Positions 16,118 through 57,462 of a stretch of 64,000 nt of DNA are shown here, one piece after another (position 1 is the stretch's first letter; every line of letters begins with the position of its first letter). The stretch is taken from IMG/VR virus record IMGVR_UViG_3300045988_115142. The stretch is one strand, 5' to 3'. The notes beneath the pieces are model-generated. The model did no database searches and was not told where the DNA came from. It worked only from the letters and a program-made list of their open reading frames with translations. This DNA comes from a virus. The position numbers were made by a program, and so were the translations under genes.

Positions 16118-16224
16118 TATAGTTAAAATGAATTATAACTATATAATATCGTTATGAAATAAGAAAATCTTATTTTAAAAAATATTTTTATATTACACAC
16201 ATTTTTAGTCAGGAGGATAAAACA

Positions 16225-17205
16225 ATGACTAACAATTACAACAACTTCAATCAACAACCTCAACAACCAATGATGGGTGGTTATGGCTATGGTATGGGTA
16301 TGCAACCACAATGGCCACAACCTATGGCAGCTCAAATGGCACCTCAAAACACGAATATGCCTATGAACAGCACATTGACTCAAGACGAAATCAACGCTCT
16401 TCGTAACCGTAATACTCGTGATATGGAAGCTTTCTTCCAACCACCAAAAGACTCTACAGAAATCGCACGTTACAAATGTAACCACCGTGATCACAATGGT
16501 CAATCTACATTAAGTGCGAATGCAGACGGCTCTTGCACATGTGGTATCTGCCATGAAACGTTTAATTATATTGAACCATCCAACGAAAATCGTAAAGAAT
16601 TGTCCAACAACGTTCGCCACGTAGTTTCCCAATTCAACGATATCTGGAATACAATGAAAGCTAACTGGGGCCCAATCTCTCCAGAATTGGCTGACAAATT
16701 GTATGTATTTGGCACGGTTATCGACCAATTGCCAAAAATGTGGGATAAATCCGCTGAATACATTTTGAACTACTATGGTTCCATGAATGTAGCTCAAGGT
16801 GGTTATGGTTACGCTAACGATTACAACACATTGAATCGTTTGTCTGCAATCACAACTGGTGCTCCTATGTATGGTTATGGATACCCTGGTATGCAACAAC
16901 AACAATGGGCTCCTCAACCAGCTCCTCAAATGAATGGTGCATTCTGGAATGGTGGTTACCAACAACAACCTCAACCAGTAGCAGGTATGCAAATGCAACA
17001 ACCTCAAGCTGGTGGCTGGGGTGCTCCTCAAAGCTACCAAGCTCCTGTAGCTCCAGCACAAGCTGCTCCTCAACAACCTGTAGCTAACCCTGCTGAAGGC
17101 ATGGCTAATCCTATTGGTCAACAAGCTCCTGTAGCAGCTCCACAAGCTCAACCTGCTACAACAACAGCATCTGCGGCAGCGGCTATCCCTGGTTTTGAAA
17201 ACTAG
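16225..17205 (+). CDS. Protein with Q/P/M/G-rich low-complexity arms, central Cys/His domain and C-terminal IPGFEN tip
   Basis: AGGAGG upstream. N-terminus NNYNNFNQQPQQPMMGGYGYGMGMQPQWPQP. Central CNHRDH...CTCGICH. C-terminal ~110 aa is almost only Q, P, A, G and M, ending AAAAIPGFEN. Visibly more G+C-rich than its neighbours. Confidence 0.8.
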   Translation: MTNNYNNFNQQPQQPMMGGYGYGMGMQPQWPQPMAAQMAPQNTNMPMNSTLTQDEINALRNRNTRDMEAFFQPPKDSTEIARYKCNHRDHNGQSTLSANADGSCTCGICHETFNYIEPSNENRKELSNNVRHVVSQFNDIWNTMKANWGPISPELADKLYVFGTVIDQLPKMWDKSAEYILNYYGSMNVAQGGYGYANDYNTLNRLSAITTGAPMYGYGYPGMQQQQWAPQPAPQMNGAFWNGGYQQQPQPVAGMQMQQPQAGGWGAPQSYQAPVAPAQAAPQQPVANPAEGMANPIGQQAPVAAPQAQPATTTASAAAAIPGFEN

Positions 17206-17228: not shown

Positions 17229-17254
17229 GGAAGTAGAGATTATTCTCTACTTCC
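17229..17254 (+). terminator. Intrinsic terminator
   Basis: GGAAGTAGAGA-TTAT-TCTCTACTTCC (11-bp stem) followed by TTTTTT. Confidence 0.85.
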
Positions 17255-17298: not shown

Positions 17299-19698
17299 AT
17301 GACCTCGATTGAGAAATTTAAAAAGAATATCAATTCTTACGGCAAATCTATTCGAACCATGGGTTCTTTTACAGAGGCTGTAAGAAAAACTCCAGGTCAA
17401 TATATAGGTTACGTTGGAGATAAAGGTTTTATTAATATGATCCGTGAAGTATTTCAGAACTCCATGGATGAATTGATGAAAGATAAATCTCCGTGTACTG
17501 AAATTTGGACTGAATATTATGAAGATACAAATACTTTCGTAAGTATGGATAATGGTCGTGGTATTCCATTTGACAATATCGAACGTATCTTCACAAAACC
17601 AAATACATCATCTAACTTTGATAAAGAAAAAGGTACAGGTGAATTCTCCTCTGGTCGTCATGGTGTTGGTGCTAAAGTTACCAATGCTTTGTCTAGTCGC
17701 TTTATTGTAGATAGCTACTTATGTAAAGAAGTTTCTCCAAGTGGTAAAGCTGAACATCGACATATGGAATTCATCGAAGGCTTCCCATGGAGTAAAGGTG
17801 AAGTTAGCCAACCTAATAAAGAAAATCGTCAAGGTTCTAGAATTGAATTCTCACCTTGTTATGATATTATGGGTGAAATCACTACAACATGTGATGACGT
17901 ACTTAATCTTATCAGTACTTTAGTACCATTGATGAAGATTGGTGCTATCGTAAACTTCAAAGGTGTAACTAAACGTGGTCAAGTAATTGAGAAACGTTTA
18001 GTAAATGAAAAAGGTATCCTTACGTTCTTAGATACAATGACTAAGAAACGTGTATGTGATCCTATCTATATCTCTGGTATGAATCCAGAGAAAACAATGC
18101 GTGCAGAAATTGCATTCACTTGGGGTGCTGATGATATCGACAGTTCTGAAGAAGTAGTCTCCTTCGGTAATATGTGTCCTACCATCAGCCAATCTATTCA
18201 TGTATCTGCTTTAGTTGATGCGGTAGCAACTTACTTCCGTAATTATTTGAATAAATTTGTATTCAATAATTCTAGTAAGATATCTGTTATTAATAATGAT
18301 ATCAAATCTGGTTTCAAGGGTGTAATCTCTGCATTCCATATTGAACCGATGTTCTCTGGTCAAGCTAAAGAAATTCTTTCCAATGCTGACTTAGAACCAT
18401 TTATCAAAGACCTAGTTAAACTAGCATTAGATGAATGGTGTAAAAAGAACGCTGATGGTGTGTCTAGAATTTCTAACCATGCTAAAGCTGCCGCTACCTT
18501 ACGTTTGAACGTAACCAAAGAGAAGATTGATACATTAAAGAAATCTCAAGTATCAGTATTCACAGGTCTTCCTTCCAAGTATGGTAAACCAACTGGTAAG
18601 AAGAATCTTGAATTCATATTGGTAGAAGGGGATTCTGCATTGAATCCATGTCGTACTGCAATCGACCATAGCTGTCAAGGTATTTTCCCACTTCGTGGTA
18701 AAGTAAAGAATGCTATGACATGTAGTCGTAAAGACTTCTTCGATAATGAAGAAAACAAAGCTATCTATACTATCTTAGGTTGCGGTGCTGGTAAAGCATG
18801 CGATCCAGACAAATGTAAATTTGATAAGATTATATTCTTAGCCGATGCCGATACTGATGGACTTCATATTCGTTCTTTGTTGTTAAAAATGTTCTTGATA
18901 TACTACCGTCCATTGGTAGAGCAAGGTCGTGTATACGCTGCTATTCCACCATTGTATGGTATTAAGAAAAAGAACAAACGTATGGTTACTAAGGATGATT
19001 ACCTTAGCAACATGCAATACTTTACAGATAAATCTGATTATATCGAATATATCTATAAACTATTTGCTAAGAATCATGTAATCACACAATGGGATGGTAC
19101 TCCATTCCATGGCAAAGAAATTGAACGTCTATTGAATAAGAATTTCAATTACCTTCAAAACATGGATATCTTGTGCCAAGACTATGCAACAGATCCAGAG
19201 TTAATGGAAACGTTGTATAAACTTATTACAAGAAAAACCCCATTGAATGGTATTAAGAAAGCTATTCATAAAGAATATCCATATCTCTCTGTAAGAGAAG
19301 AGAATGGATGTCTTGTAGTAGATGGTCTAGCTAAAGATAGAGTTCAAACTCTTATCTTTACATCTAATATGCTAAAGGATTGCTATCGTTTAATCGGAGA
19401 TAGCATTAATGAAAACTATAAAGATGAAGGTTACCAAATTGATGGTAAACGAGTTAGTCTTTATACATTAATGAAAACTCTAGATGATTCCAAACCAGAT
19501 ACAATCCAACGCTATAAAGGTTTAGGCGAAATGAATCCAGTAGAATTAATGATTTCTACAATCCATCCAGCTTATAACCGAACTCTAATTCAGTTCACCG
19601 CTGAAGATATGCAACGTGAAATCAACGAAATTCGTCGATTAGATACAGATAAACATAATCTATTAGATGACGTTGACGTTGCTGGATATGATATTTAA
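17299..19698 (+). CDS. Type II DNA topoisomerase, ATPase/TOPRIM subunit (GyrB/ParE-like; T4 gp39-like)
   Basis: GHKL motifs EVFQNSMDE, DNGRGIP and GRHGVGAKV; TOPRIM ILVEGDSA and ADADTDGLHI; C-terminal YKGLGEM. Confidence 0.9.
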   Translation: MTSIEKFKKNINSYGKSIRTMGSFTEAVRKTPGQYIGYVGDKGFINMIREVFQNSMDELMKDKSPCTEIWTEYYEDTNTFVSMDNGRGIPFDNIERIFTKPNTSSNFDKEKGTGEFSSGRHGVGAKVTNALSSRFIVDSYLCKEVSPSGKAEHRHMEFIEGFPWSKGEVSQPNKENRQGSRIEFSPCYDIMGEITTTCDDVLNLISTLVPLMKIGAIVNFKGVTKRGQVIEKRLVNEKGILTFLDTMTKKRVCDPIYISGMNPEKTMRAEIAFTWGADDIDSSEEVVSFGNMCPTISQSIHVSALVDAVATYFRNYLNKFVFNNSSKISVINNDIKSGFKGVISAFHIEPMFSGQAKEILSNADLEPFIKDLVKLALDEWCKKNADGVSRISNHAKAAATLRLNVTKEKIDTLKKSQVSVFTGLPSKYGKPTGKKNLEFILVEGDSALNPCRTAIDHSCQGIFPLRGKVKNAMTCSRKDFFDNEENKAIYTILGCGAGKACDPDKCKFDKIIFLADADTDGLHIRSLLLKMFLIYYRPLVEQGRVYAAIPPLYGIKKKNKRMVTKDDYLSNMQYFTDKSDYIEYIYKLFAKNHVITQWDGTPFHGKEIERLLNKNFNYLQNMDILCQDYATDPELMETLYKLITRKTPLNGIKKAIHKEYPYLSVREENGCLVVDGLAKDRVQTLIFTSNMLKDCYRLIGDSINENYKDEGYQIDGKRVSLYTLMKTLDDSKPDTIQRYKGLGEMNPVELMISTIHPAYNRTLIQFTAEDMQREINEIRRLDTDKHNLLDDVDVAGYDI

Positions 19699-33593: not shown

Positions 33594-33607
33594 AAAGGAA
33601 TTTGAAA

Positions 33608-34759
33608 ATGCTATTAAATGCAAAAGTAATTGGCATTGGTGCAGCTGGTAACAAAGCTACTATTGCCTTATTTAAGAAATATCCTGAGATTGCTAAGGAT
33701 ATGGTTTTAATCAACTCTACGTTAAAAGATATTCCAGAAGAATATCATGACCGTGCTATTGAATTAGATGGTGAATATCGTGGTTGTGCTAAAGAACGTA
33801 CAATTGCTAATCAAATGATGGTAGATACTCTTAAGAGTGGTCATTTCGAATATGAAAAAGACCCTAAAGATTGTATGACTATCATTGTTACATCTTCTGA
33901 AGGTGGTACTGGTTCTGGTGCATCTGTACTTCTAGCAAACTACTTGCACAAAGTACATGGTACACATATCCACTTCTTCGTATTCACTGGTTTTGAAGAC
34001 GACGTTCGTGGATTAAAAAATACAGTAGATCTATTCAAAGAAATGGATGATAGCTTTACAGTAGAAGCTTTATCTAACAAATCTTTCTTAGAAGCTGCTG
34101 GTAATAATCGTTTACGTGCAGAACAATTAGCAAATGAAAAGTTTGCTGATAACGTAAACATCTTATTAGGTGGTACTATTAATAAATCTTCTCAAAATAT
34201 TGATGAATCCGATTTGTTAAAAACTGTACGTACACCTGGTTTTATGTATATTGACCGTGTCAATATGACTAAAATCAAAAACTCTGATGATTTCAACCGT
34301 CGTATTACTGAAGTAATTGATGATATGAAATCTTTAGAAACCCAACCATCTGCAAAGCGTATCGCTACAGTTCTTGATGTAAAAGAACGTGCATTAGAAT
34401 TCATTGACTTTGGTTATGAAGTTATTAAGAAACGTTTTGGTATGCCTTTCGAAGCATTCTCTCATGTGCAAGACTTACATGAACCTGAATACTTAGATAT
34501 TATTGTATCTGGTTTGAAAATGCCTATCAATGAAATCGAAAAGACATACGAAGATTTCAAAGAACGTTCTAAGTTTGTAGATACTACAGCTGATGACTTC
34601 TTCAACAAAGAATATGCTACTAATGCAGATATCTTTGATACACTTCAAGCAGATGCAACACCGGCAGATGTAGACGCTGCCAAAGATGACTTCTTTAAAT
34701 CTCTTGGTAAAGATAAAAAAGAAGAATCTAAGAAAATTAAAGTTGTACAAGACTTTTAG
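33608..34759 (+). CDS. Tubulin/FtsZ-superfamily GTPase (PhuZ/TubZ-like phage tubulin)
   Basis: T1-loop VIGIGAAGNK, tubulin signature T4-loop SSEGGTGSGAS (GGGTGSG), T7-like NIDESDL, and a charged C-terminal tail (...AAKDDFFKSLGKDKKEESKKIKVVQDF). ATG 33608 is preferred over TTG 33602. Confidence 0.8.
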   Translation: MLLNAKVIGIGAAGNKATIALFKKYPEIAKDMVLINSTLKDIPEEYHDRAIELDGEYRGCAKERTIANQMMVDTLKSGHFEYEKDPKDCMTIIVTSSEGGTGSGASVLLANYLHKVHGTHIHFFVFTGFEDDVRGLKNTVDLFKEMDDSFTVEALSNKSFLEAAGNNRLRAEQLANEKFADNVNILLGGTINKSSQNIDESDLLKTVRTPGFMYIDRVNMTKIKNSDDFNRRITEVIDDMKSLETQPSAKRIATVLDVKERALEFIDFGYEVIKKRFGMPFEAFSHVQDLHEPEYLDIIVSGLKMPINEIEKTYEDFKERSKFVDTTADDFFNKEYATNADIFDTLQADATPADVDAAKDDFFKSLGKDKKEESKKIKVVQDF

Positions 34760-34783
34760 AGTCAAACTAAAGGAAGAACATTT

Positions 34784-34807
34784 CCCATACCCAATATTGG
34801 GTATGGG
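34784..34807 (+). terminator. Intrinsic terminator, perfect palindrome
   Basis: CCCATACCCAATATTGGGTATGGG, extendable by an outer helix (AGGAAGAAC/GTTCTTTC), followed by a T-rich tract. Confidence 0.8.
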
Positions 34808-34840
34808 AGTTCTTTCGCAAAATCTATAAGGGGGTAAAGT

Positions 34841-41763: not shown

Positions 41764-44062
41764 TGCTTTACGAAATGGTAAAGATATCATTACTCCAGAA
41801 GATGTAACTGATATCAATAATATTTCTGTAAATTATATTCAAGGTCAAGGTAAAGTAGAACCAAGAGATATTAGAAATATATTGGAGATATCCAATATCT
41901 TATACAATAATACTCAAAGAGCTATATTACCTTTGGATGATGCCATCTATGATTCAGTTGTAGTTAAGTTCAAGAATCAAGGGTTTGAACCACCAGTTGG
42001 TGCAGTTGGTATTACTATAGACAGTAAAGATAACGTTGGTTCTTTATTAGAAGATCAATCTCTTCTTGAAGTGTTTAAAACTATCCCAGAAGAGAAAGCT
42101 AAGGAAATGCTTTATGATAAAGATCTTATGAGATTTGAAATGCCTATTAAAGAGGATTTCTATAATCCAAATAGCGTAGGTAATTATACAGAACTCTCTA
42201 AGATTAAGCATAGTGCTGAGCATAATTATCCTGAGCTTGTTGGTACTCTTTACAAATGTAAGTATACCACAATGAATGAAGCTGTAGCAGCTGGAGTAGA
42301 ACCAGATGATATCACAACTATGGTATTTGAAAGAGATTTCTTGAGTAAATACTATAATGCAGTTTTCCCATATACAATGGATGGTAAAGCTGGATTGATA
42401 GCTGAGCTTAAATACGATGGTGTATCTATAGAAGCTACAGTTGATGGTGATACTATCATTGCAGCTTATAGTCGTGGTGATACAGCTAATGGAATAGCTT
42501 CTGACTACACTCCAATCTTTGGTGGTAAAGTATTCCATCGTGCTAAAGGTATCATTCCAAAAGGAACTGTCTTTGGTATTAAATTCGAAGCAATAGTTAC
42601 GGATAGAAATCTTGAAATTCTCAAATATAAATTCGGGAAAGAATATAAGAATTCTCGGGTAGCTATTATTGGCTTGCTTGGTAGTTCTGATGTAAACAAA
42701 TATAGAGATTTGATTACACTGGTACCAATCAGAACCAGTGGATTACAATTCGATGATATGGTTCAAGAAGTAGAATTCTTGAATAAGTATTATTCCTCTG
42801 GTGTAGAGATGAAGTATACTTATATGAGAGGGAATTATAATGAACTCTTATTCCAAACTTATCGATTCGTTCAAGATGCTTCTGCTCTAAGAGGTATCAT
42901 GGGATTCATGTATGATGGTGTAGTAATCTCATTCGCTGATTATAATATCCATAAGATTCTTGGTAGAAATAACTTTACTGATAATTGGGCTATGGCTATT
43001 AAATTCAATGCTATGAGTGCTGATACTATCTTCAATGGGTATACATACACAGTAGGTCAAAATGGTCTAATCACACCAATGGCTCACTTCAAACCTGTCC
43101 AATTCCTTGGTTCTACGCATGACAAAACGACTGCTCATAGCTATAAGAGATTCAAAGAATTGGCTTTAAAGGTTGGGGATCCAGTTAGGATTACATATGT
43201 GAATGATGTTATCTGTTATATAGATAAACCATTTAAAGATGTAGACAATCCTAATCCAGTTATCCCATTCCCTACACATTGTCCAGCTTGTGGCAGTCCT
43301 ATTACTTTATCTATGTCTGGTGATAGTGCTTATTGTCTAAATCCTCTTTGTCCAGAACGTAATGCTACTCGTATTACGAACATGGTTAAGAAGTTAGGAT
43401 TCAAAGACTTCTCCAGAGCATACATCTCCAAGCTAGATATAAAATCATTTAGAGATTTGATTGAATTAGATAAGATATATTCAGCAGAACTAATTGGTGA
43501 TGCTTTAACTAATAAACTATTCGACCAAATCAATAAGATTAAATCTGAACCATTACCAGATTATAAAGTGGTAGGTGCTCTTGGCTTCAGTTCTATTAGT
43601 GCTGAACGCTGGAGAATTATTCTAAATAATGTATCTTTAAATGCTATCATTCATAATGATGACGATAGTGTTAGACGTTTGATTAGTATGGTTAAAGGTA
43701 TTGGTAAAGTAATTGCTGATACTATAGCTAAAGAACGCCATGTCTTCATGGATGATTTGTTATTGATAGAATCTATGCCTAATTTACAAATAACCTTCAG
43801 AGGTGAAGGAGCTTCTGTACAAGATAGAAAGACAGTTCGGTTTACTGGATTTAGATCTGCTGTATTAGAAGAAGAATTTAATAAATTAGGATTCGATGCA
43901 GATGGTAACAAATCTGTAACTAAGAAGACCGATATCTTAGTTATTCCTTATCCAGGATTTGTATCTTCTAAGTTAAGCAAGATAAGTCCTAATTGTTTAG
44001 TACTTTCTGAGAAAGATGCTTATGACTACATAATGTATCTTCAAAGTCAAAATAATTTATAA
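41735..44062 (+). CDS. ligA: NAD-dependent DNA ligase
   Basis: Adenylation motif ELKYDGVSIE (KxDG), Zn finger CPACGS...CLNPLCPE, HhH-like region, and a C-terminal BRCT-like TVRFTGFRS...SVTKKTDILVI. The start overlaps the RNAP gene by 29 nt. Confidence 0.85.
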   Translation: MNQRLITILDALRNGKDIITPEDVTDINNISVNYIQGQGKVEPRDIRNILEISNILYNNTQRAILPLDDAIYDSVVVKFKNQGFEPPVGAVGITIDSKDNVGSLLEDQSLLEVFKTIPEEKAKEMLYDKDLMRFEMPIKEDFYNPNSVGNYTELSKIKHSAEHNYPELVGTLYKCKYTTMNEAVAAGVEPDDITTMVFERDFLSKYYNAVFPYTMDGKAGLIAELKYDGVSIEATVDGDTIIAAYSRGDTANGIASDYTPIFGGKVFHRAKGIIPKGTVFGIKFEAIVTDRNLEILKYKFGKEYKNSRVAIIGLLGSSDVNKYRDLITLVPIRTSGLQFDDMVQEVEFLNKYYSSGVEMKYTYMRGNYNELLFQTYRFVQDASALRGIMGFMYDGVVISFADYNIHKILGRNNFTDNWAMAIKFNAMSADTIFNGYTYTVGQNGLITPMAHFKPVQFLGSTHDKTTAHSYKRFKELALKVGDPVRITYVNDVICYIDKPFKDVDNPNPVIPFPTHCPACGSPITLSMSGDSAYCLNPLCPERNATRITNMVKKLGFKDFSRAYISKLDIKSFRDLIELDKIYSAELIGDALTNKLFDQINKIKSEPLPDYKVVGALGFSSISAERWRIILNNVSLNAIIHNDDDSVRRLISMVKGIGKVIADTIAKERHVFMDDLLLIESMPNLQITFRGEGASVQDRKTVRFTGFRSAVLEEEFNKLGFDADGNKSVTKKTDILVIPYPGFVSSKLSKISPNCLVLSEKDAYDYIMYLQSQNNL

Positions 44063-44152
44063 AAGTATATTATAGATGTGGTAAGGGTGGTGTATTTTCC
44101 ACATCACCCATACACAATTTTAATATTTTTATATTTCAAGGAGGACAAACCT

Positions 44153-44749
44153 ATGAAAGACTATCAAGCTAGTTATAGCGAAAAGTTTAAAGAAGCATTA
44201 AGAAAGTTTAATGACTCTGCAACAGCATTGTACTTCGTAGTACAAACATCTACAAGTCATGACTACGAAGATCCATTCACAACAGTAACTGTGTACAACA
44301 AGAAGAAAAATACAGATTGGGAAGCTACACTCTTATCCGAGTTCTGCTCCGATCCTAATAAAGATCTTATTGCTACATATCAAAAAGTTTCACTCACCAC
44401 CAAACCTGGTAAGGAATCTATAAATATTACTGTAATTAAAAACGTCATTGGTTTTGGTATTGCTACAAGCTTAGAACAAGTAAACGAAATCATCACTTAT
44501 ATGGAAGCAGATAATCGCGATCTTCGTAAAATCTATTTCTATGATTATGATTTGGTCATTCAAGAACTTGTACCACCTAAAGCTTCTGATTTAATTGCAA
44601 CTAAACCAAACTTTAGTCAACCAATTAATGGTGCTTATGGTACAATCACCACCTTCAATTCAGGAACAGCAGATACTGACAGTGTTGTTGATAAAACCGA
44701 GAAAGTACCGCTTCAACAAGTCGGTTCTATCCCTGGTTTTGAAGGGTAA
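44153..44749 (+). CDS. Hypothetical protein: folded domain, disordered tail, C-terminal IPGFEG tip
   Basis: The ATG at 44153 is preceded by AAGGAGG (the track start 44078 has no SD). The last ~45 aa are low in hydrophobics and end QQVGSIPGFEG. Confidence 0.75.
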   Translation: MKDYQASYSEKFKEALRKFNDSATALYFVVQTSTSHDYEDPFTTVTVYNKKKNTDWEATLLSEFCSDPNKDLIATYQKVSLTTKPGKESINITVIKNVIGFGIATSLEQVNEIITYMEADNRDLRKIYFYDYDLVIQELVPPKASDLIATKPNFSQPINGAYGTITTFNSGTADTDSVVDKTEKVPLQQVGSIPGFEG

Positions 44750-44824: not shown

Positions 44825-45415
44825 ATGAAATTCGCAGAATCCGCAGTAGCAAATGCAGTACAATCCAACTTATTACAAGAAAAAATCGCTTGGTCTGCAA
44901 GCTTTACAGAAATCTTTATTAAAGCAGCTGTAGAAGGTATCACTACTTACCTTGGTCAAGTTAAAAACGAAGGTCCTAAAACTGTAGTAGTTAAAAATGG
45001 TGATAATACAGTAGTCTTTTCCGCATCTATCGAAAAACATGAATCCGATGATGGCGAAGGCTTCAGTGTAAACATGTTGGTTAACCCAACTGAAGATGAA
45101 TTAGTTGGTGATAAAGTAACATTCGACGATGTAGTATTATCTGCTATCTTCGAAAAAGTTGCTTCCAAATATCGTTTCAATATTGCACCAATCAATGGTC
45201 AAGAATACACTTCTAAATTGATTGCTGTAATGATCAAATCCATTAAGGAATACTTCCGTACAAATATCGATGTAGATCCTGTATTGGAAATTCCTAACTT
45301 CGTAATCTTCGAAGGTTATGTAGAAGATGACAAAGTTAAAGTTAAAGTAGTACTTGATGCAGCTATCAAACAAATCGTAAAAGATGATGCTGTATTAGAA
45401 GAAGAAGCAAAATAA
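44825..45415 (+). CDS. Acidic hypothetical protein, likely abundant
   Basis: AGGAGG upstream. Codon choice resembles that of the capsid-like gene (GGT/GCT/CGT/GTA-rich). No motif recognised. Confidence 0.75.
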   Translation: MKFAESAVANAVQSNLLQEKIAWSASFTEIFIKAAVEGITTYLGQVKNEGPKTVVVKNGDNTVVFSASIEKHESDDGEGFSVNMLVNPTEDELVGDKVTFDDVVLSAIFEKVASKYRFNIAPINGQEYTSKLIAVMIKSIKEYFRTNIDVDPVLEIPNFVIFEGYVEDDKVKVKVVLDAAIKQIVKDDAVLEEEAK

Positions 45416-46149: not shown

Positions 46150-47862
46150 ATGATCACTCAAAGAGAATTCATTAAACGATTTACCGAGAAAACAACTATT
46201 CCATTCAACGGTGATTTATTTGTGCGTTCTGATGATGATATTGTAGAGCATTTGAAAAAGATAATCCTTTCATGTCAAACATCGAATGGTATCTTTGCAG
46301 TCAAAGTTAAGGGCTTTGAACTTATCGAAGGATATACAAACGTCCAAGAAACTTTGAAAGAGTATTATTCTAAAAATAATAATCGGAATCGTAAGAAAGG
46401 TGCTGCTGATGAAAATCAGTATAACTATATCAATCTAAAAGATTCGATTATCAAGATTTTAGTCGTAGATTATCATCTAATGGCTAAGGGTCAGGAAGAG
46501 AACCTTCGGGTTCTCATCATGATCCCTGAAGTTGTTAAAAAGTTTTATTTTTATCTTAATGGGAATTATTACCTCCCTATGTATCAAATCGTAGATAGAA
46601 GTACTTACAATTCAACTTCAGCTAAGAATGAGAAGGATTATATCACACAGAAGACCAACTTCCAACCGATAAATATCTATCGACATGTGTATGAACTTAA
46701 TACTTCTGATGGTGAAACAGTTCCAGCGACTGAGTTCGATTGTAATATCTTCAAAAAGACATTCCCAGCATCATTATTCCTATTCGCTAGATATGGTTTA
46801 ACTGGTGCATTACGTGAACTTGGTTTAGATAAGATATTTGTATTCACATCAGACGATAAGTTCAAAGATGATCCTGAAATACTCACATTTATTCCAAATA
46901 CTAATACGAATATACACATCAACGTACCAAAAAGTATTTATAAAAATAATCAACTCGTTCAGCATATAGTCTATACACTCTGTATGCGAACTGATAAGCA
47001 TCTCAGTCTAAATGGTCTATTCGATACTGAGTATTGGGTAGGTAAGTTAGGTGAGACATTTAGTGTAGCTAATAAGCTCATTAAAGGTCACAGTATTCTA
47101 CGTTCCTTTGAGTCTATCTTAGACTTCAATATCCAAGAGCAACTTCGTTTACCTTGGACAGCTAAGAAAGATATGTTCTGTGTTCTTATGTGGATGCTTA
47201 AAGAATATTCTTCCTTAAGAGAACGTGATACATTGGATGTAACTAAGAAGAAATTGCGTTATGGTGAATATATCGCAGCTACTTATGCTAAGACTTTAAA
47301 TTCTAAGATTTATCGTCTAAGCAATAACGGTAACCGTGTAGATATTGATTATATTCGCAAAAACTTAGATATCCAACCGGACTATTTAATAAAAGAGCTT
47401 ACTCGCAGTCAATTGATTGCGTTTAGAAATGCTGTAACGAGTGTTGACTCTATTACAGCATTGAAATTTACTTACAAAGGCATCTCTGGTATTGGTGAAA
47501 ACAAAGCCAATAGCGTATCAGATTCTTTCCGTCTATTAGATATCTCTAATATGGGTATCCTAGATCCAGATGCATCTTCCGCATCAGATCCTGGTATTTC
47601 TGGTTCTGTAGTTCCTATGCTTAAACCAGCTGCTCATGGATATCTTTCAGATGAACCTGAACCGATGTTCTGGCAAGATGATTTCAATGCACTTTATGAA
47701 GAGTATAAAAAGATTAAAGGGCTACAAGAACTCATCGAATTCAAAGCTGACGTTTTGGGTGACGAAGAAGCTGCTAAGAATGTGGCTATGGCTCGCATTG
47801 CTACAGAGATGGCTACTAATGTTAACTCTACTTTAGCAAGAATCGTTGAGGAAAATGAATAA
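46150..47862 (+). CDS. Phage multisubunit RNA polymerase, beta subunit N-terminal half
   Basis: SQLIAFRNAVTSVDSITALKFTYKGISGIG...FRLLDISNMGILDPDASSASDPGISGSVVPML aligns with the bacterial beta Rif-region/fork segment QLSQFMDQ..SEITHKRRISALGPGGL...[25 protein letters not shown]. Confidence 0.7.
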   Translation: MITQREFIKRFTEKTTIPFNGDLFVRSDDDIVEHLKKIILSCQTSNGIFAVKVKGFELIEGYTNVQETLKEYYSKNNNRNRKKGAADENQYNYINLKDSIIKILVVDYHLMAKGQEENLRVLIMIPEVVKKFYFYLNGNYYLPMYQIVDRSTYNSTSAKNEKDYITQKTNFQPINIYRHVYELNTSDGETVPATEFDCNIFKKTFPASLFLFARYGLTGALRELGLDKIFVFTSDDKFKDDPEILTFIPNTNTNIHINVPKSIYKNNQLVQHIVYTLCMRTDKHLSLNGLFDTEYWVGKLGETFSVANKLIKGHSILRSFESILDFNIQEQLRLPWTAKKDMFCVLMWMLKEYSSLRERDTLDVTKKKLRYGEYIAATYAKTLNSKIYRLSNNGNRVDIDYIRKNLDIQPDYLIKELTRSQLIAFRNAVTSVDSITALKFTYKGISGIGENKANSVSDSFRLLDISNMGILDPDASSASDPGISGSVVPMLKPAAHGYLSDEPEPMFWQDDFNALYEEYKKIKGLQELIEFKADVLGDEEAAKNVAMARIATEMATNVNSTLARIVEENE

Positions 47863-48408: not shown

Positions 48409-48434
48409 CCCATTACCCAATATTGGGTAATGGG
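48409..48434 (+). terminator. Intrinsic terminator, perfect palindrome
   Basis: CCCATTACCCAATATTGGGTAATGGG followed by GTTTCTTTCAAAAAAA. Confidence 0.8.
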
Positions 48435-53458: not shown

Positions 53459-55405
53459 ATGGCAATCGTAGGCTCTACAGATAATGCTAATAAAGAGATT
53501 CTTCGTGGTTACGAACAAGACTCCATGCATGAAACTGCTGCTCGCTTTGTTGAATTAGCACGTGCAGCTAAACAAGAATCCGGCTTGGATATCTTCAATA
53601 ACCCAACAGAATTCTTAACTAATAACCTTGGTAAAGAAGATCTTAAATCTTTCTTCGTAAACGAATCTTACGACGCAGAAGATCCTCGTTTCAAAGGCAA
53701 CTCCGCTGCTCTTCGTTCTCACTTAGAAAACATGGAAATGTTGTTCGAAAACGACGTACAAGCAGCTGTTACTGAATCCACTAACTTGGGTGCATTGTCC
53801 CCAGTAATCGGTATGGTAACACCAATCCATAAAAATATCTTGATGAACGCTGTTTATGATCAAGTAATGCCAAAAGACGTTTCCCGTAGCCCTAAATTCA
53901 CTTTGACTATGGAAACTCGTAACTTGGTTGATACTAAAGGCAACAAAATCGATATGTATGCTGAACAAAACTTGATCAAGAAAGCTATCGATGAATCCGT
54001 TCCTACATTCGACAAAGTTATCACTACTTTGCCTGAACAAGAAGCTACTGACTTCGTTGCTGAAGCAGTTGCAGCTAATGTAATTGACGCTTCCGTTCAA
54101 TCCATTGCTAACCTTTCCATGCGTACAGAAGTTTTTGGCGTTGTAGTTAAAAACGTATACGTAGAAAAAGGCGAAATGGTTTGGGATGCTACTCAACAAA
54201 AAGAAGTTCCTGCTACAGCAGCTGGTGCTAACTCCGTATTGTTCAAATTACATGCATTCTTCACTCCTGGTTATGGCGACCATGTTCGTCAAATGCATCG
54301 TGCATTCATGATTTCCTTCAAGAAAAATGCTACTGATACAGTAACTGCTTCTGGTACAATCATGGGTTACTTGAATGAAAAGAACCGTATGTTGCTTCAA
54401 TGTGGTCCATTGAAAGTTAAAGACGGTGCTACTGAAGCATTCGATACTACTACTTTCTTGGTAGAAGCACTTGTTGTTCGTGCTGTATTTGATGTATCTT
54501 CCGCTGCATTCCCAACTGTTAAAGTTGAATGGTCCAGTACTACAGATATCTTCCAAATTCCAGAAGCTCCACATGTAACTGTACCTATCACTCCAGAAGA
54601 AGTTAAAGACGTTCAAGCTCTTTATGACGTAAACCAAGTTACAAAACTTATGTCCATGATCCGCCTTGCTCTTCTTCATTGGAAAGATGATTCCATCCGT
54701 GATGATCTTGATGCTTCTTACTTGGCTATGCCTGAATCCAAACAATACAAAGCAGCATTTGACTTCACACCTCCAATTAACTTCACTGGTCTTCCAGTAG
54801 TATGGCGTAATGGTCAATTCATGGATCGTTTGGAAACTATGGTTACTGAAATGCTCCAAGAATTGAATGATGAAAACATGACTATCGCTATCTTCGGTCG
54901 TCCTGACTTGATCCGTCGTATTGCTCCTCAACAATACACTTATCAAACAGCTTCCAACATCGGTCCTGTTGAATTAGACTTCACTCGCACTGTTGTTACT
55001 TCCGAACATCGTGTATACAACTTCATCTCCACTAACAAAATGCGTAACAACAATAACTTCGTAGTATTGTTGATTCCTCGTAACTCCATGCGTATTACTT
55101 ACAAAGTGGTAGATTACCAAATGTACTTAAGCAACGAAATTCGTGATGCTCGTCAAACTGCATTGCCAGCTATGACTGCATTCGAACGTTGGTTATTCTT
55201 ACAATATCAACCTGTTCAAGGACGTATGCATATTATGAATCCTACTGGCTTACGCAACAACCCTGAAGACGACGTTAAAGACTTCATCGGTGCTAATGCT
55301 ATGAACGATTACACTGCTAACCGTGCAGATTATGCTAACGAAGTTAACGGTGTAGTTGATCCAGCTACAGGTCACTTCCAAATTCCACCTATCAAAACTA
55401 ACTAA
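53459..55405 (+). CDS. Abundant virion structural protein, probably major capsid protein
   Basis: 648 aa with a strong SD. Codon usage is markedly shifted towards CGT/GCT/GGT/GTT/TTC/AAC compared with its neighbours. Preceded by the polyacidic scaffold-like gene and followed by a strong terminator. Identity is by context only; tail sheath or another abundant protein is not excluded. Confidence 0.4.
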   Translation: MAIVGSTDNANKEILRGYEQDSMHETAARFVELARAAKQESGLDIFNNPTEFLTNNLGKEDLKSFFVNESYDAEDPRFKGNSAALRSHLENMEMLFENDVQAAVTESTNLGALSPVIGMVTPIHKNILMNAVYDQVMPKDVSRSPKFTLTMETRNLVDTKGNKIDMYAEQNLIKKAIDESVPTFDKVITTLPEQEATDFVAEAVAANVIDASVQSIANLSMRTEVFGVVVKNVYVEKGEMVWDATQQKEVPATAAGANSVLFKLHAFFTPGYGDHVRQMHRAFMISFKKNATDTVTASGTIMGYLNEKNRMLLQCGPLKVKDGATEAFDTTTFLVEALVVRAVFDVSSAAFPTVKVEWSSTTDIFQIPEAPHVTVPITPEEVKDVQALYDVNQVTKLMSMIRLALLHWKDDSIRDDLDASYLAMPESKQYKAAFDFTPPINFTGLPVVWRNGQFMDRLETMVTEMLQELNDENMTIAIFGRPDLIRRIAPQQYTYQTASNIGPVELDFTRTVVTSEHRVYNFISTNKMRNNNNFVVLLIPRNSMRITYKVVDYQMYLSNEIRDARQTALPAMTAFERWLFLQYQPVQGRMHIMNPTGLRNNPEDDVKDFIGANAMNDYTANRADYANEVNGVVDPATGHFQIPPIKTN

Positions 55406-56751: not shown

Positions 56752-57462
56752 ATGGCACTAGGAGACAACAACAATCGCGAATTAAGACCTACAGTATACT
56801 CTGGTTATACTTTCTACAACACACGTTCTGAGAAAGCTAAATCTCGTATGAACTTCTCTATGTGGAAGAATACTATTAAACTTTCTATCGAACGTATGGT
56901 AAAAGAATCTAACGACGGTTATGGTGCAGAATTCGATACAGAAAATCCAGCATTATTATACTTAACTGCTTCTAAAGCATTAGTATTGGCTGATCTTCTT
57001 AAAGCTTACTTACGTGACCCAGAACAATACTCTGGTTTCGGTGTAGAATCTGCACGTGCATTGATTACTATCACTCGTGAAGGTGATGACGATGTTCTTA
57101 CTGTATCTACTAAGAACGGTTCTGAAATCGGTGATGGTTTATCTTATGTATTAAATCATTCTTTCCCTGTAGTTGAAAAAGTTAAAGAAGATGGTAGTAT
57201 TTCTTACAATAATTCTTTTGCTTCTTCTACAGATATCAAACAATTGATTTTCCAATTGGATGACTATGTACATGCAATGAATAATACTATTGCTTTCTCT
57301 GTTATTGATAACTTGGCTAGAAACACTCAATCTAAATATAGCTTCTTGAAAGAAGCATTAAGTGGTGGTTCTTCCTATGGTAACAATAATGGTGGTAGCC
57401 GTTATGGCAAAGGTTCTGCAAGCCAAAACAACGAAGTTGACGACTTAGACGACTTCATGTAA
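56752..57462 (+). CDS. Putative single-stranded DNA-binding protein
   Basis: Architecture only: a ~190-aa folded region, a G/S/N/Y-rich linker (GGSSYGNNNGGSRYGKGSASQNN), and an acidic tip ending in aromatic/hydrophobic residues (EVDDLDDFM). This is the pattern of bacterial SSB and T7 gp2.5 tails. Codon usage suggests high expression. Confidence 0.45.
   Translation: MALGDNNNRELRPTVYSGYTFYNTRSEKAKSRMNFSMWKNTIKLSIERMVKESNDGYGAEFDTENPALLYLTASKALVLADLLKAYLRDPEQYSGFGVESARALITITREGDDDVLTVSTKNGSEIGDGLSYVLNHSFPVVEKVKEDGSISYNNSFASSTDIKQLIFQLDDYVHAMNNTIAFSVIDNLARNTQSKYSFLKEALSGGSSYGNNNGGSRYGKGSASQNNEVDDLDDFM

What the first reader, a model, noticed from the sequence alone, without database searches (positions are those of the whole stretch)
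44153..44749. Two otherwise unrelated proteins end in the same IPGFE tip, encoded by 17 identical nucleotides
The 16225 protein ends ...AAAAIPGFEN and the 44153 protein ends ...QQVGSIPGFEG. The DNA CTATCCCTGGTTTTGAA is identical at 17183-17199 and 44727-44743, although the rest of the two genes shows no similarity I can see. Both tips follow long disordered linkers, giving a domain-linker-tip architecture. Established precedents exist for C-terminal short linear motifs after a flexible linker. One is the SSB tip (DDDIPF), which recruits many genome-maintenance proteins. Others are the T7 gp2.5 acidic tail, and the T4 polymerase, gp33 and gp55 tails that insert into the sliding clamp. The inference is that IPGFE[NG] is a docking peptide for a common phage or host partner, such as a clamp, helicase, RNAP or chaperonin. 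Nucleotide-level identity suggests recent gene conversion or very strong constraint.
Basis: partly seen in the sequence, partly recalled or inferred. Interest (0 to 1): 0.65.

Follow-up and report, generated by a model that had tools for sequence, protein, structure and literature searches.

The report
Shared C-terminal docking tip, jumbo phage
Two unrelated proteins of an uncultured ~255-kb phage end in the same strictly conserved four-residue tip (IPGF plus two variable residues) on a floppy linker, most likely a peptide that plugs both into one still-unknown partner, as three phage T4 proteins do with the sliding clamp.

Summary
CTATCCCTGGTTTTGAA occurs only at 17183-17199 and 44727-44743, in frame, encoding …AIPGFEN* (protein A, 326 aa) and …SIPGFEG* (protein B, 198 aa). 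The proteins are otherwise unrelated.

The DNA identity itself is weak evidence. The window has two other exact repeats of 17 nt or more. Identical codons are a ~1-4% event given codon usage. Orthologs carry synonymous changes in the tip. The protein-level signal is strong. IPGF is invariant in 121 B orthologs (preceding 32 residues ~70% conserved, with indels) and in six listed A-family proteins or clusters. A shared C-terminal pentapeptide among 51 window proteins is expected in ~0.2% of trials.

Distant A homologs (25-34% identity, same replication-module synteny) keep the domain-linker-tip layout but end in [VQ][FY]NV. In one such phage an unrelated 172-aa protein also ends …AIFNV, so the tip co-varies within genomes.

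A is a zinc ribbon plus helical hairpin between Q/P/G/A-rich disordered arms, and probably abundant. B is clade-specific with no known fold.

The best reading is a shared docking motif, closest in architecture to T4 gp43/gp55/gp33 binding gp45. The tip fails the sequence tests for SSB-Ct, β-clamp motif, FtsZ peptide and T7 tails. The partner is unknown. Gene conversion or nucleotide constraint is not supported.

The parts
16225..17205 (+). Gene A: 326-aa protein ending in the tip. It is conserved in the replication module, directly upstream of the GyrB-like topoisomerase II gene.
   Evidence: ORF with an AGGAGG RBS. Orthologs are 78-100% identical and distant homologs 25-34%. Synteny with the DnaB-like and Dda/PIF1-like helicases and topoisomerase II holds in L027, L039, L050 and L153. 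No Pfam or PHROG hit.
16225..16365 (+). A N-terminal disordered arm (aa 1-47), M/Q/N/P/G/Y-rich with no charged residues.
   Evidence: pLDDT about 30-38. Composition.
16366..16821 (+). A folded core (aa 48-199). It has a probable zinc ribbon with invariant C85, H87, C106 and C109 (nt 16477-16551), followed by a long helical hairpin (aa 123-184).
   Evidence: Invariant columns in alignments A2 and A3. AlphaFold pLDDT 60-78 and secondary structure. No PDB fold match; the only BFVD matches are two uncharacterised homologs from uncultured myoviruses. PDB profile search gives only marginal zinc-finger hits.
16822..17184 (+). A C-terminal disordered linker (aa 200-320), A/Q/P/G-rich with 2% charged residues. 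It contains a second conserved short motif, NP[IML][GA]… (aa 295-302, nt 17107-17130).
   Evidence: pLDDT about 30. Composition. Length varies among orthologs; P0126 lacks about 32 aa. Composition resembles the E. coli SSB linker, cosine 0.82. The NP[IML][GA] motif is conserved in distant homologs.
17185..17202 (+). Tip of A: I-P-G-F-E-N, followed by a TAG stop at 17203-17205.
   Evidence: Invariant in the six listed close A-family proteins or clusters and in all A loci fetched from IMG/VR.
17229..17254 (+). Intrinsic-terminator-like hairpin (11-bp stem plus a T run) 24 nt after the A stop codon. A therefore looks like a self-contained transcription unit.
44153..44749 (+). Gene B: 198-aa clade-specific protein ending in the tip. 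It lies between the NAD-dependent DNA ligase gene and, after two small ORFs, the DNA polymerase gene.
   Evidence: ORF with an AAGGAGGA RBS. There are 207 homologs, of which the 120 listed are 76-97% identical, all on relatives of this phage. An exhaustive profile search of 1.8 billion representatives finds only one full-length cluster. No Pfam, PHROG, PDB or fold match.
44153..44557 (+). B globular part (aa 1-135), predicted alpha/beta, 96% column conservation.
   Evidence: The AlphaFold model is of low confidence (pLDDT 45-60).
44558..44728 (+). B linker (aa 136-192). It is variable in sequence and length, apart from an embedded conserved motif PNFSQPING (aa 152-160, nt 44606-44632; 98% conserved).
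   Evidence: aa 161-192 are 70% conserved, with indels. pLDDT 23-30.
44729..44746 (+). Tip of B: I-P-G-F-E-G, followed by a TAA stop at 44747-44749. Orthologs have IPGFEG or IPGFNN.
   Evidence: IPGF is invariant in 121 of 121 sequences.
17183..17199 (+). First copy of the identical 17-nt stretch CTATCCCTGGTTTTGAA.
44727..44743 (+). Second copy of the identical 17-nt stretch.

Best explanation
IPGF-[E/N]-x-COOH is a C-terminal short linear motif. Each of two unrelated proteins of an uncultured ~255-kb jumbo myovirus presents it at the end of a flexible, fast-evolving linker. It most likely docks both proteins into the same pocket of one partner. They would then either be recruited to the same machine or compete for it.

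Protein A is the ancestral carrier of the tip. It is probably abundant, and it has a zinc-ribbon plus helical-hairpin core between two uncharged Q/P/G/A-rich disordered arms. Its gene is fixed in the replication module, between the helicases and topoisomerase II. Protein B is a clade-specific small protein encoded between the ligase and polymerase genes. It appears to have acquired the same tip.

The receptor is probably a component of the phage or host DNA replication and repair machinery, or A's own core. It would read an aromatic residue held exactly three positions from the free C-terminus.

Shown: the tip exists, it is under strong protein-level purifying selection in both families, it sits on disordered and variable linkers, and the tip sequence differs between phage lineages but is shared between unrelated proteins within a genome (two genomes).

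Inferred: that the tip binds anything, that the two proteins bind the same site, and what the partner is.
For: 1. The tip core is invariant while the linker drifts. IPGF is 100% conserved in 121 B sequences, against 70% for the preceding 32 residues, which also carry indels. IPGFEN is kept in six A-family proteins or clusters whose linkers differ by indels of up to about 32 aa.
2. Selection acts on the peptide, not the DNA. Tip codons show synonymous changes in orthologs.
3. A shared C-terminal pentapeptide among window proteins is expected in only about 0.1-0.2% of trials.
4. The architecture is conserved across 25-34%-identity A homologs, which end in a different but conserved tip: …QQQ[QK]V[FY]NV or …QFNV. 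The aromatic residue is always at position -3 and N or E at -2.
5. Within-genome sharing recurs. In distant phage locus L027 the A homolog ends KVYNV. An unrelated 172-aa protein (folded N-terminal part, then an acidic linker) ends AIFNV, using different codons. The pattern [VI][FY]N[VI]-COOH was found in 0 of 585 background ORFs.
6. Both linkers are predicted disordered.
7. Context is DNA metabolism. A is syntenic with the DnaB-like and Dda/PIF1-like helicases and with topoisomerase II in four lineages. B lies between ligase and polymerase.
8. A ranks 2nd of 51 genes in preferred-codon use, just behind the major capsid protein. This fits an abundant hub or scaffold.
9. There is a direct precedent with the same anatomy. 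T4 gp43, gp55 and gp33 share [ST]LDFL[FYL] tips behind divergent linkers, and the tips are interchangeable.
Against: - No partner was identified, and no binding was tested or modelled.
- No clamp or SSB is recognisable among the window's proteins.
- The putative DNA polymerase (46150-47862) does not carry the tip. That is unexpected if a clamp were the receptor.
- Only two proteins per genome carry the strict tip in three complete relatives, so this is not a broad hub motif.
- Within-genome sharing in a distant lineage rests on a single genome (L027). Three other distant loci (L039, L050, L153) showed no second tip-bearing gene within the 8-20 kb available.
- One distant A homolog (P0130) ends …DEPKK without the tip.
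- AlphaFold did not dock either tip onto its own core (tip pLDDT about 30).
Confidence: 0.6

Rival explanations
1. The tip is a self-association 'sticker'. Its receptor would be the folded core of A itself. A, being abundant with two low-complexity arms, would form a multivalent network or condensate (a replication factory), and B would be a client recruited by the same sticker. This is a special case of the docking model in which no third protein is needed.
For: - A is the only family that always carries the tip. The tip changes together with the A core between lineages.
- A's arms are uncharged and Q/P/G/A/Y/M-rich. The C-terminal arm has a composition like the E. coli SSB linker, cosine 0.82.
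- In E. coli SSB the tip binds its own OB domain (PMC10164576), and SSB is reported to form condensates (abstract of bioRxiv 10.1101/797431, listed).
- A is probably abundant.
Against: - AlphaFold placed the tip nowhere with confidence (pLDDT about 30).
- There is no evidence that A oligomerises or binds DNA.
- The similarity to the SSB linker is compositional, not homologous.
Confidence: 0.12
2. The tip is a C-terminal degradation or processing signal rather than a docking motif for a functional partner. It would be a degron for a host or phage AAA+ protease, or a site for the prohead protease, and would give both proteins the same timed turnover.
For: - The fixed distance of the aromatic residue from the free C-terminus suggests that the terminus itself is read, as it is for C-terminal degrons (general knowledge).
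- G-F-E followed by G or N resembles the S/A/G-x-E cleavage preference reported for phiKZ-type prohead proteases (from memory, not checked here).
- Both genes look like early or middle genes that might need clearing later in infection.
Against: - Glu is not conserved. B variants have IPGFNN, and distant tips are FNV or YNV, which argues against an x-E cleavage site.
- Cleavage would remove only one residue.
- The tip does not resemble known C-terminal degrons such as the LAA type (general knowledge).
- An abundant, codon-optimised protein is an odd target for constitutive degradation.
Confidence: 0.1
3. The tip mimics a host C-terminal peptide and so hijacks or blocks that peptide's binding partners. 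Candidates are the SSB tip D-I-P-F, the FtsZ C-terminal peptide D-I-P-x-F-L-R, and a beta-clamp-binding motif Q-phi-x-L-F.
For: - I-P-(G)-F echoes the I-P-F of the SSB tip and the I-P-x-F of the FtsZ peptide (from memory for the FtsZ sequence; A376, F377 and K380 lie in the FtsZ peptide).
- A's linker has an SSB-like composition.
- Distant A tips (QQQVF, QTAVF) fit Q-x-x-[LV]-F, and the L027 172-aa protein (EFAIF) fits x-phi-x-phi-F.
- Phages are known to use host clamps (PMC12867686, title and significance statement).
Against: - SSB-tip recognition needs the Phe to be the last residue, with its carboxylate anchored, plus an acidic run. Here Phe is at -3, and the preceding residues are AAAA or GS.
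- For the clamp motif, positions 1, 4 and 5 matter most. In the window tips only position 5 fits ([AS]-I-P-G-F).
- The FtsZ peptide continues with hydrophobic and basic residues that are absent here.
- A strict scan of 185,579 species' genomes found no recurrent cellular protein family ending in IPGFE-x. There were 90 hits, about the chance level, and only 9 ended ORFs of 60 aa or more.
- The host is unknown.
Confidence: 0.1
4. Coincidence or a DNA-level feature. The shared 17 nt would be a chance repeat, a recombination scar from recent gene conversion, or part of a nucleic-acid signal, with no function for the peptide.
For: - The window contains two other exact repeats of 17-19 nt.
- Identical codons are only a ~1-4% event given the amino acids, a weak hint of common descent of the two tips.
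- The two loci also share a 14-mer in their 5' leaders.
Against: - The peptide is conserved through synonymous changes.
- It is invariant in 121 B sequences, and the IPGFEN tip is kept in the six close A-family proteins or clusters, next to drifting linkers.
- The distant lineage shares its tip through different codons.
- There is no similarity past the stop codons.
- The upstream 14-mer is an ordinary AT-rich leader element and is not conserved in all orthologs.
Confidence: 0.05

Closest known systems
Phage T4 sliding-clamp-binding C-terminal epitopes of gp43 (DNA polymerase), gp55 (late sigma factor) and gp33 (co-activator), which bind gp45
   Same: - Unrelated proteins of one phage end in the same short peptide.
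[quoted passage not shown]
- 0-4 variable residues follow the core.
- The tips bind one receptor and are interchangeable (PMC2988020; the termini …SLDFLFG, …SLDFLYEAND and …TLDFLL were read from NC_000866).
   Different: - The sequence is unrelated: IPGF[EN]x or [VI][FY]NV, against [ST]LDFL[FYL].
- The tip here is not acidic.
- No gp45-like clamp or clamp loader is recognisable in the 64-kb window.
- The putative polymerase lacks the tip.
- Only two carriers were found per genome.
Bacterial SSB: OB domain, disordered G/Q/P-rich linker, then the SSB-Ct tip (…DFDDDIPF)
   Same: - Domain-linker-tip layout.
- The linker is poorly conserved and of variable length.
- A's C-terminal arm has a very similar composition (cosine 0.82, including a GGWG.PQ stretch).
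- The tip contains I-P-(x)-F.
- The carrier is probably abundant and encoded among replication genes.
   Different: - SSB-Ct needs a C-terminal-most Phe whose carboxylate is clamped by a basic lip, plus Asp residues on a basic ridge. Here Phe is at -3, followed by E/N and G/N, and no acidic run precedes it.
- A's core is predicted as a zinc ribbon plus helical hairpin, not an OB fold.
- ssDNA binding by A is untested.
Phage T7 acidic C-terminal tails of gp2.5 (SSB) and gp4 (helicase-primase), which bind the basic patch of gp5 DNA polymerase
   Same: Two unrelated replication proteins of one phage carry similar C-terminal tails with a critical aromatic residue and bind the same site on a third protein (PMC12339929: the gp4 tail peptide DTDF in PDB 6P7E was used as the template for the gp2.5 tail).
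   Different: - The T7 tails are strongly acidic and end in Phe.
- Here the linkers are uncharged (A) or mixed to basic (B), and Phe is not terminal.
Bacterial beta-clamp-binding motif Q-phi-x-L-F (or Q-phi-x-L-x-L)
   Same: - A short hydrophobic peptide, often at the extreme C-terminus of replication and repair proteins.
- It is shared by many unrelated clients of one pocket.
- Distant A tips (QQQVF, QTAVF) and the L027 172-aa protein (EFAIF) approach the pattern.
   Different: The window tips [AS]-I-P-G-F lack Q at position 1 and L at position 4. Those are two of the three positions most important for binding.
FtsZ: globular domain, disordered C-terminal linker, then a conserved C-terminal peptide
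   Same: - Same three-part layout.
- The peptide is a hub for several partners (PMC12607630).
- I-P-x-F is part of the peptide (from memory).
   Different: - The FtsZ peptide is about 14 residues long and continues after Phe with hydrophobic and basic residues.
- A and B are not tubulins.
- The phage's own tubulin (33602-34759) ends …KVVQDF, without the tip.

Membership tests
T4-type clamp-binding C-terminal epitope | The same short C-terminal peptide is present on unrelated proteins of one phage. | tested here: met
   A and B are unrelated and share IPGFE. In L027 two unrelated proteins share [VI][FY]NV.
T4-type clamp-binding C-terminal epitope | The linker before the epitope is divergent in sequence and variable in length. 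| tested here: met
   Defined in PMC2988020.
T4-type clamp-binding C-terminal epitope | Epitope sequence is hydrophobic and acidic, [ST]LDFL[FYL]. | tested here: not met
   The T4 termini read differ from IPGF[EN]x.
T4-type clamp-binding C-terminal epitope | The phage encodes a gp45-type sliding clamp and loader, and its polymerase carries the epitope. | tested here: inconclusive
   No clamp or loader was recognised among the window proteins. The putative polymerase ends …RIVEENE. About 190 kb of the genome lies outside the window and was not available.
Bacterial SSB-Ct tip | Phe is the C-terminal-most residue, with a free alpha-carboxylate. | tested here: not met
   Phe is at -3 in all 121 B and all A sequences. 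Defined in PMC10164576.
Bacterial SSB-Ct tip | An acidic run (Asp residues) lies immediately before the hydrophobic tip. | tested here: not met
   The preceding residues are AAAA (A) and Q-V-G-S or H-P-T-G-S (B).
Bacterial SSB-Ct tip | An OB-fold ssDNA-binding core. | tested here: not met
   The A core is predicted as a zinc ribbon plus helical hairpin at pLDDT 60-78. No OB-fold hits. The B model is too poor to judge.
Bacterial SSB-Ct tip | A poorly conserved G/Q/P-rich disordered linker. | tested here: met
   A 200-320 against E. coli SSB 113-178: composition cosine 0.82.
Beta-clamp-binding motif (Q-phi-x-L-F) | Q at position 1, and L and F at positions 4 and 5 (the most important positions). 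| tested here: not met
   [AS]-I-P-G-F has only F5, plus an aliphatic residue at position 2. Consensus from bioRxiv 10.64898/2026.05.27.728225. Distant A tips QQQVF partly fit.
FtsZ conserved C-terminal peptide | A conserved peptide of about 14 residues (D-I-P-x-F-L-R-type) on a tubulin-fold GTPase. | tested here: not met
   Only I-P-x-F matches, and the sequence ends two residues after Phe. A and B have no tubulin domain. Layout defined in PMC12607630.
T7-type acidic C-terminal tail | A strongly acidic tail ending in Phe. | tested here: not met
   A 200-320 has 2% charged residues. The B linker is mixed, with K-runs in most orthologs. Phe is not terminal. Defined.
PGF-CTERM / sortase-type sorting signals | The signature motif is followed by a transmembrane helix and a basic tail. 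| tested here: not met
   Only two residues follow PGF. The family definition is from general knowledge.
Generic C-terminal short linear docking motif | A short conserved peptide in a disordered region, conserved more strongly than its flanks, with convergent presence in unrelated proteins. | tested here: met
Generic C-terminal short linear docking motif | Demonstrated binding to a defined partner domain. | not testable with these tools
   No multimer prediction or experiment was available.

The most novel reading that the evidence does not exclude
Uncultured jumbo myoviruses may carry a previously unrecognised interaction system built around the A family. A would be an abundant zinc-ribbon plus helical-hairpin protein with SSB-like low-complexity arms, acting as the organising hub or condensate scaffold of the phage replication compartment. 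Its lineage-specific C-terminal tip has an aromatic residue at -3 and N or E at -2, a recognition code distinct from SSB-Ct, clamp-binding, FtsZ and T7 tails. Lineage-specific client proteins (B here, the 172-aa protein in L027) would copy that tip to gain entry to the same site.
Probability: 0.2. Interest if true: 0.7.

Novelty: new variant of a known kind. Interest (0 to 1): 0.5.

Why it matters
Unrelated phage proteins that share a C-terminal peptide on flexible linkers are how T4 and T7 wire their replisomes and late transcription. Finding the same anatomy with an unrelated peptide, in a widespread but uncultured group of ~255-kb phages, gives a concrete handle on two proteins of otherwise unknown function. 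A six-residue peptide can be used directly as bait in pull-downs or in AlphaFold-Multimer screens. The A family is also of interest in itself. It is probably abundant, has low-complexity arms, and is fixed in the replication module of several jumbo-phage lineages with no known fold or annotation. The lineage-specific switch of the tip, copied by a second protein in the same genome, is a natural co-evolution experiment that could point to the receptor.

Tried and rejected
**Searches for relatives and function**
- GenBank phages: megablast and tblastn with A, B and their neighbourhoods found nothing.
- Distant B homologs: the exhaustive profile search found only B's own cluster plus fragments or chimeras. 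Tip co-variation therefore could not be tested with B orthologs.
- The last large homology search, using A's central domain, returned a single truncated protein.
- Fold searches: A's core matched nothing in the PDB. In BFVD it matched only two uncharacterised homologs. B matched nothing.
- PDB sequence-profile searches gave only marginal zinc-finger hits for A and nothing for B.
- Literature: 'IPGFE' returns nothing relevant, and no paper describing this tip was found.

**Tests of tip sharing in other lineages**
The second gave one locus, with no second tip-bearing gene.
- Search for relatives of the L027 172-aa protein in IMG/VR: none found.
- Homology of that protein to B: not significant (hhalign P = 0.25).
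- Census of QQxVFNV-stop in IMG/VR: only A homologs, plus junk antisense frames.
- P0129 lineage: no second tip-bearing gene in its 8-kb contig.

**Host and mimicry**
- Host mimicry or host assignment via the tip pattern in 185,579 genomes: chance-level hits only.

**Extending the scan for more carriers**
- Extension past the window edges: the right-edge protein was not on record. About 6 kb gained on the left has no tip-bearing gene.
- A relaxed whole-genome scan for tip variants (for example x-P-G-F-x-x-stop) was not possible. The collection search needs at least 14 specified bases, and such patterns would give thousands of chance hits.

**Ideas considered and dropped**
- The shared upstream 14-mer as a dedicated promoter: rejected.
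- The 'KYNI' C-terminus of the 133-137-aa proteins in distant loci as a third tip carrier: rejected. It is the conserved end of a globular family whose window ortholog ends …KFII.
- The 236-aa protein ending …DDLDDFM as the phage SSB: no support.
Full report
**1. Observation**

The 17-mer CTATCCCTGGTTTTGAA occurs exactly twice in the window, at 17183-17199 and 44727-44743. No further copy appears even with two mismatches. Both copies lie in frame at the 3' ends of genes with strong ribosome-binding sites:
- Gene A (16225-17205, 326 aa) ends …AAAAIPGFEN*.
- Gene B (44153-44749, 198 aa) ends …QQVGSIPGFEG*.

A six-frame scan finds no other IPGF or PGF[ED] C-terminus in the window. A and B share nothing else. 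The best BLASTP segment is the tip itself. The only other DNA match between the two loci is a 14-mer in the 5' leaders.

**2. How much is chance**

The DNA identity alone is not remarkable.
- The window contains three pairs of exact direct repeats of 17 nt or more.
- Given the amino acids, the window's codon usage makes five identical codons a 4% event, or about 1% including the preceding xCT.
- B orthologs carry synonymous variants within the tip: CCG, TTC, GAG, and ATC CCG GGT TTC AAT AAT for IPGFNN. Nucleotide-level constraint is therefore excluded, and gene conversion is unnecessary as an explanation.

What is unlikely is the protein-level coincidence. A shared pentapeptide at the same offset from the C-terminus among 51 window proteins is expected 0.001 times, and appeared in 0.19% of resampling trials.

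**3. The genome**

The window is 33% G+C and has no relative among GenBank phages. Metagenomes hold many relatives on contigs of about 250-260 kb. The window encodes:
- split multisubunit RNA polymerase pieces;
- both topoisomerase II subunits;
- DnaB-like and Dda/PIF1-like helicases, and a primase;
- a UvsX-like recombinase;
- an NAD-dependent ligase and a polymerase;
- NrdD/NrdG and a dUTPase;
- a GroEL-like chaperonin;
- a PhuZ-like tubulin;
- a T4 gp53-like baseplate protein;
- a major capsid protein related to those of jumbo phages phiR1-37 and LPJP1.

It is an uncultured jumbo myovirus. The host is unknown. There are no tRNAs in the window, and the phage is absent from 185,579 representative bacterial and archaeal genomes as judged by the tip pattern.

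**4. Conservation of the tip**

*B family.* All 120 listed B homologs (76-97% identity) end IPGFEG or IPGFNN. In a 121-sequence alignment:

| B residues | Segment | Conservation |
|---|---|---|
| 193-196 | IPGF | 100% |
| 197-198 | last two residues | 80% |
| 161-192 | preceding linker | 70%, with indels |
| 1-135 | globular part | 96% |

*A family.* All six listed close A-family proteins or clusters (one stands for 247 sequences) end IPGFEN, although their linkers differ by substitutions and a deletion of about 32 residues.

**5. Architecture**

*Protein A.* AlphaFold with a diverse alignment gives a core at pLDDT 60-78. The core is a short three-stranded zinc ribbon carrying the invariant C85, H87, C106 and C109, followed by a long helical hairpin (aa 123-184). 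Residues 1-59 and 185-326 have pLDDT of about 30. The arms are uncharged and Q/P/G/A/M/Y-rich. The C-terminal arm resembles the E. coli SSB linker in composition (cosine 0.82), but this is compositional similarity, not homology. The core has no match in the PDB. In BFVD it matches only two uncharacterised proteins of uncultured myoviruses.

*Protein B.* The model is poor (pLDDT 42). It shows an alpha/beta N-terminal part and a disordered tail from about residue 136. Neither sequence nor fold searches give any hit. An exhaustive profile search finds no family member beyond this phage clade.

*Abundance.* A ranks 2nd of 51 genes for preferred C-ending codons, just behind the major capsid protein. 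It is followed by a strong terminator, so it is probably a very abundant, separately transcribed product.

**6. Evidence from distant relatives**

A has homologs at 25-34% identity in other large phage contigs. They sit in the same place, after the DnaB-like helicase, gp53-like protein and Dda/PIF1-like helicase, and directly before the GyrB-like topoisomerase gene. They keep the layout of disordered arm, zinc-ribbon and hairpin core, disordered arm, then tip. Their tip is different and is itself conserved: …QQQKVYNV, …QQQQVFNV, …QQTAVFNV, …QQKQFNV, …GKVFNK. Across both tip types the aromatic residue is always three positions from the C-terminus and is followed by N or E. One homolog (P0130) lacks a tip.

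In locus L027, whose A homolog ends KVYNV, a 172-aa protein encoded between the two topoisomerase genes ends …REFAIFNV. It has a folded N-terminal part and an acidic linker. It is unrelated to A, not detectably related to B, and uses different codons. The pattern [VI][FY]N[VI]-COOH occurs in 0 of 585 background ORFs. Among 151 phage-locus ORFs it occurs only in A homologs and in this protein.

So in two lineages an unrelated, lineage-specific small protein carries the tip of that lineage's A protein. Three other distant loci showed no second carrier within the 8-20 kb available. In this window's lineage, however, the two carriers are 27 kb apart, so those negatives are weak.

**7. Interpretation**

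The simplest account is a C-terminal short linear motif that docks A and B onto the same site. The fixed spacing to the free C-terminus suggests that the terminal carboxylate is part of what is recognised.

The genomic context is DNA replication and repair for both genes and for the L027 protein. This points to a replisome or repair component as receptor, but nothing here identifies it. No clamp or SSB is recognisable in the window, and the putative polymerase lacks the tip.

A special case deserves mention. The receptor may be A's own core, with A acting as a multivalent scaffold and B as its client. This would explain why the tip changes together with A between lineages. It parallels SSB, whose tip also binds its own OB domain.

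Three rivals are not excluded:
- A degron or processing signal. Loss of Glu in the IPGFNN and FNV variants weakens this.
- Mimicry of a host peptide. This fails the defining features of the SSB tip, the clamp-binding motif and the FtsZ peptide, and no cellular protein family ending in IPGFE-x was found.
- Chance or a DNA-level feature. The conservation pattern argues against this.

**8. Comparison with known systems**

The closest match in anatomy is the T4 set gp43, gp55 and gp33. These unrelated proteins end in …SLDFLFG, …SLDFLYEAND and …TLDFLL behind divergent linkers of variable length. All three bind gp45, and their tips are interchangeable. The T7 gp2.5 and gp4 tails binding gp5 are a second precedent.

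The present tip is not a member of any of these sequence classes. It should be filed as a new sequence variant of a known kind of device, carried by two protein families of unknown function.

**9. Limits**

- Only the strict pattern IPGFE plus one residue plus a stop codon could be scanned across complete relatives. It hit only A and B in three ~254-kb genomes.
- Relaxed variants outside the window remain unchecked.
- No complex prediction or experiment was possible.
- The partner and the consequence of binding are inferred, not shown.

Noticed in passing
window 33602-34759 (+): The 385-aa protein is a divergent PhuZ-like tubulin (PHROG 4733 'tubulin PhuZ', E = 1.8e-6; faint Pfam Tubulin hit on its ortholog). 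No chimallin-like shell protein was recognised in the window, so it is open whether this phage builds a nucleus-like compartment.
   Followed up: partly
window 34783-34808 and 48409-48434: Two perfect 26-nt palindromes (TCCCATACCCAAT/ATTGGGTATGGGA and CCCATTACCCAAT/ATTGGGTAATGGG) share a 16-nt core, TACCCAATATTGGGTA. Each lies just downstream of a gene end and is followed by G(T)TTCTTTC. They could be terminators without a T run, or protein-binding sites.
   Followed up: partly
window 16181-16194 and 44122-44135: The exact 14-mer AATATTTTTATATT occurs only twice in the window, 31 and 18 nt upstream of the start codons of A and B. It lies in the upper tail of upstream-region similarity (5 of 325 pairs share 13 nt or more). 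It is not conserved in all orthologs, so it is probably an ordinary AT-rich leader or promoter element.
   Followed up: yes
window, many intergenic regions (e.g. upstream of 11627, 16225, 20455, 37973, 39313, 44153, 44825, 60896): TATATAATA or TATATTATA-like elements recur 40-90 nt upstream of many genes. They are a candidate promoter consensus for the phage's own multisubunit RNA polymerase.
   Followed up: no
window 56752-57462 (+): A 236-aa protein of unknown function ends in an acidic tail with an aromatic residue (…EVDDLDDFM). It has the third-highest preferred-codon score in the window. No Pfam, PHROG or PDB hit. It lies just downstream of the capsid gene cluster.
   Followed up: partly
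window 53459-55405 (+): This unannotated 648-aa protein is the major capsid protein (PDB 7x30, E = 2e-10; tblastn hits to the capsid proteins of Yersinia phage phiR1-37 and Listeria phage LPJP1). It has the strongest codon bias in the window.
   Followed up: yes
window 17107-17130 (A aa 295-302) and 44606-44632 (B aa 152-160): Each disordered tail holds a second conserved short motif. In the A family it is NP[IML][GA]x, conserved down to 25-34% identity, and distant homologs also have PG[VM][MI]PGA. In B it is PNFSQPING (98% conserved). The tails may therefore be multi-motif.
   Followed up: partly
window 43858-43876 and 45388-45406; 19220-19237 and 44867-44884: There are two other exact direct repeats of 18-19 nt between unrelated genes. 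One is TGCTGTATTAGAAGAAGAA (encoding AVLEEE), found inside the ligase gene and near the 3' end of the 196-aa gene next to B. This shows that repeats of this length occur by chance or by codon bias in this genome.
   Followed up: partly
L027 13322-14305 and 20248-20930; L050 12637-13686: In distant relatives the GyrB-like topoisomerase gene is split by an inserted homing-endonuclease-like ORF (weak NUMOD4 hit). The GyrA-like gene carries an intein (weak Intein_splicing hit). In the window both genes are intact.
   Followed up: no
L019 (IMGVR_UViG_3300006462_000045, 12,630 bp); IMGVR_UViG_3300006832_000004 (L030, L032): Some public contigs carry the B gene or the A gene twice in opposite orientation. 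These are probably inverted-duplication assembly artefacts, so copy numbers taken from such contigs should not be trusted.
   Followed up: no
protein P0134: A 176-aa database protein joins a TsaB/YeaZ-like bacterial N-terminus to the B linker (…DYDLVIQELMPPK…PNFSQPINGAY…). It is probably a chimeric assembly or gene call.
   Followed up: no
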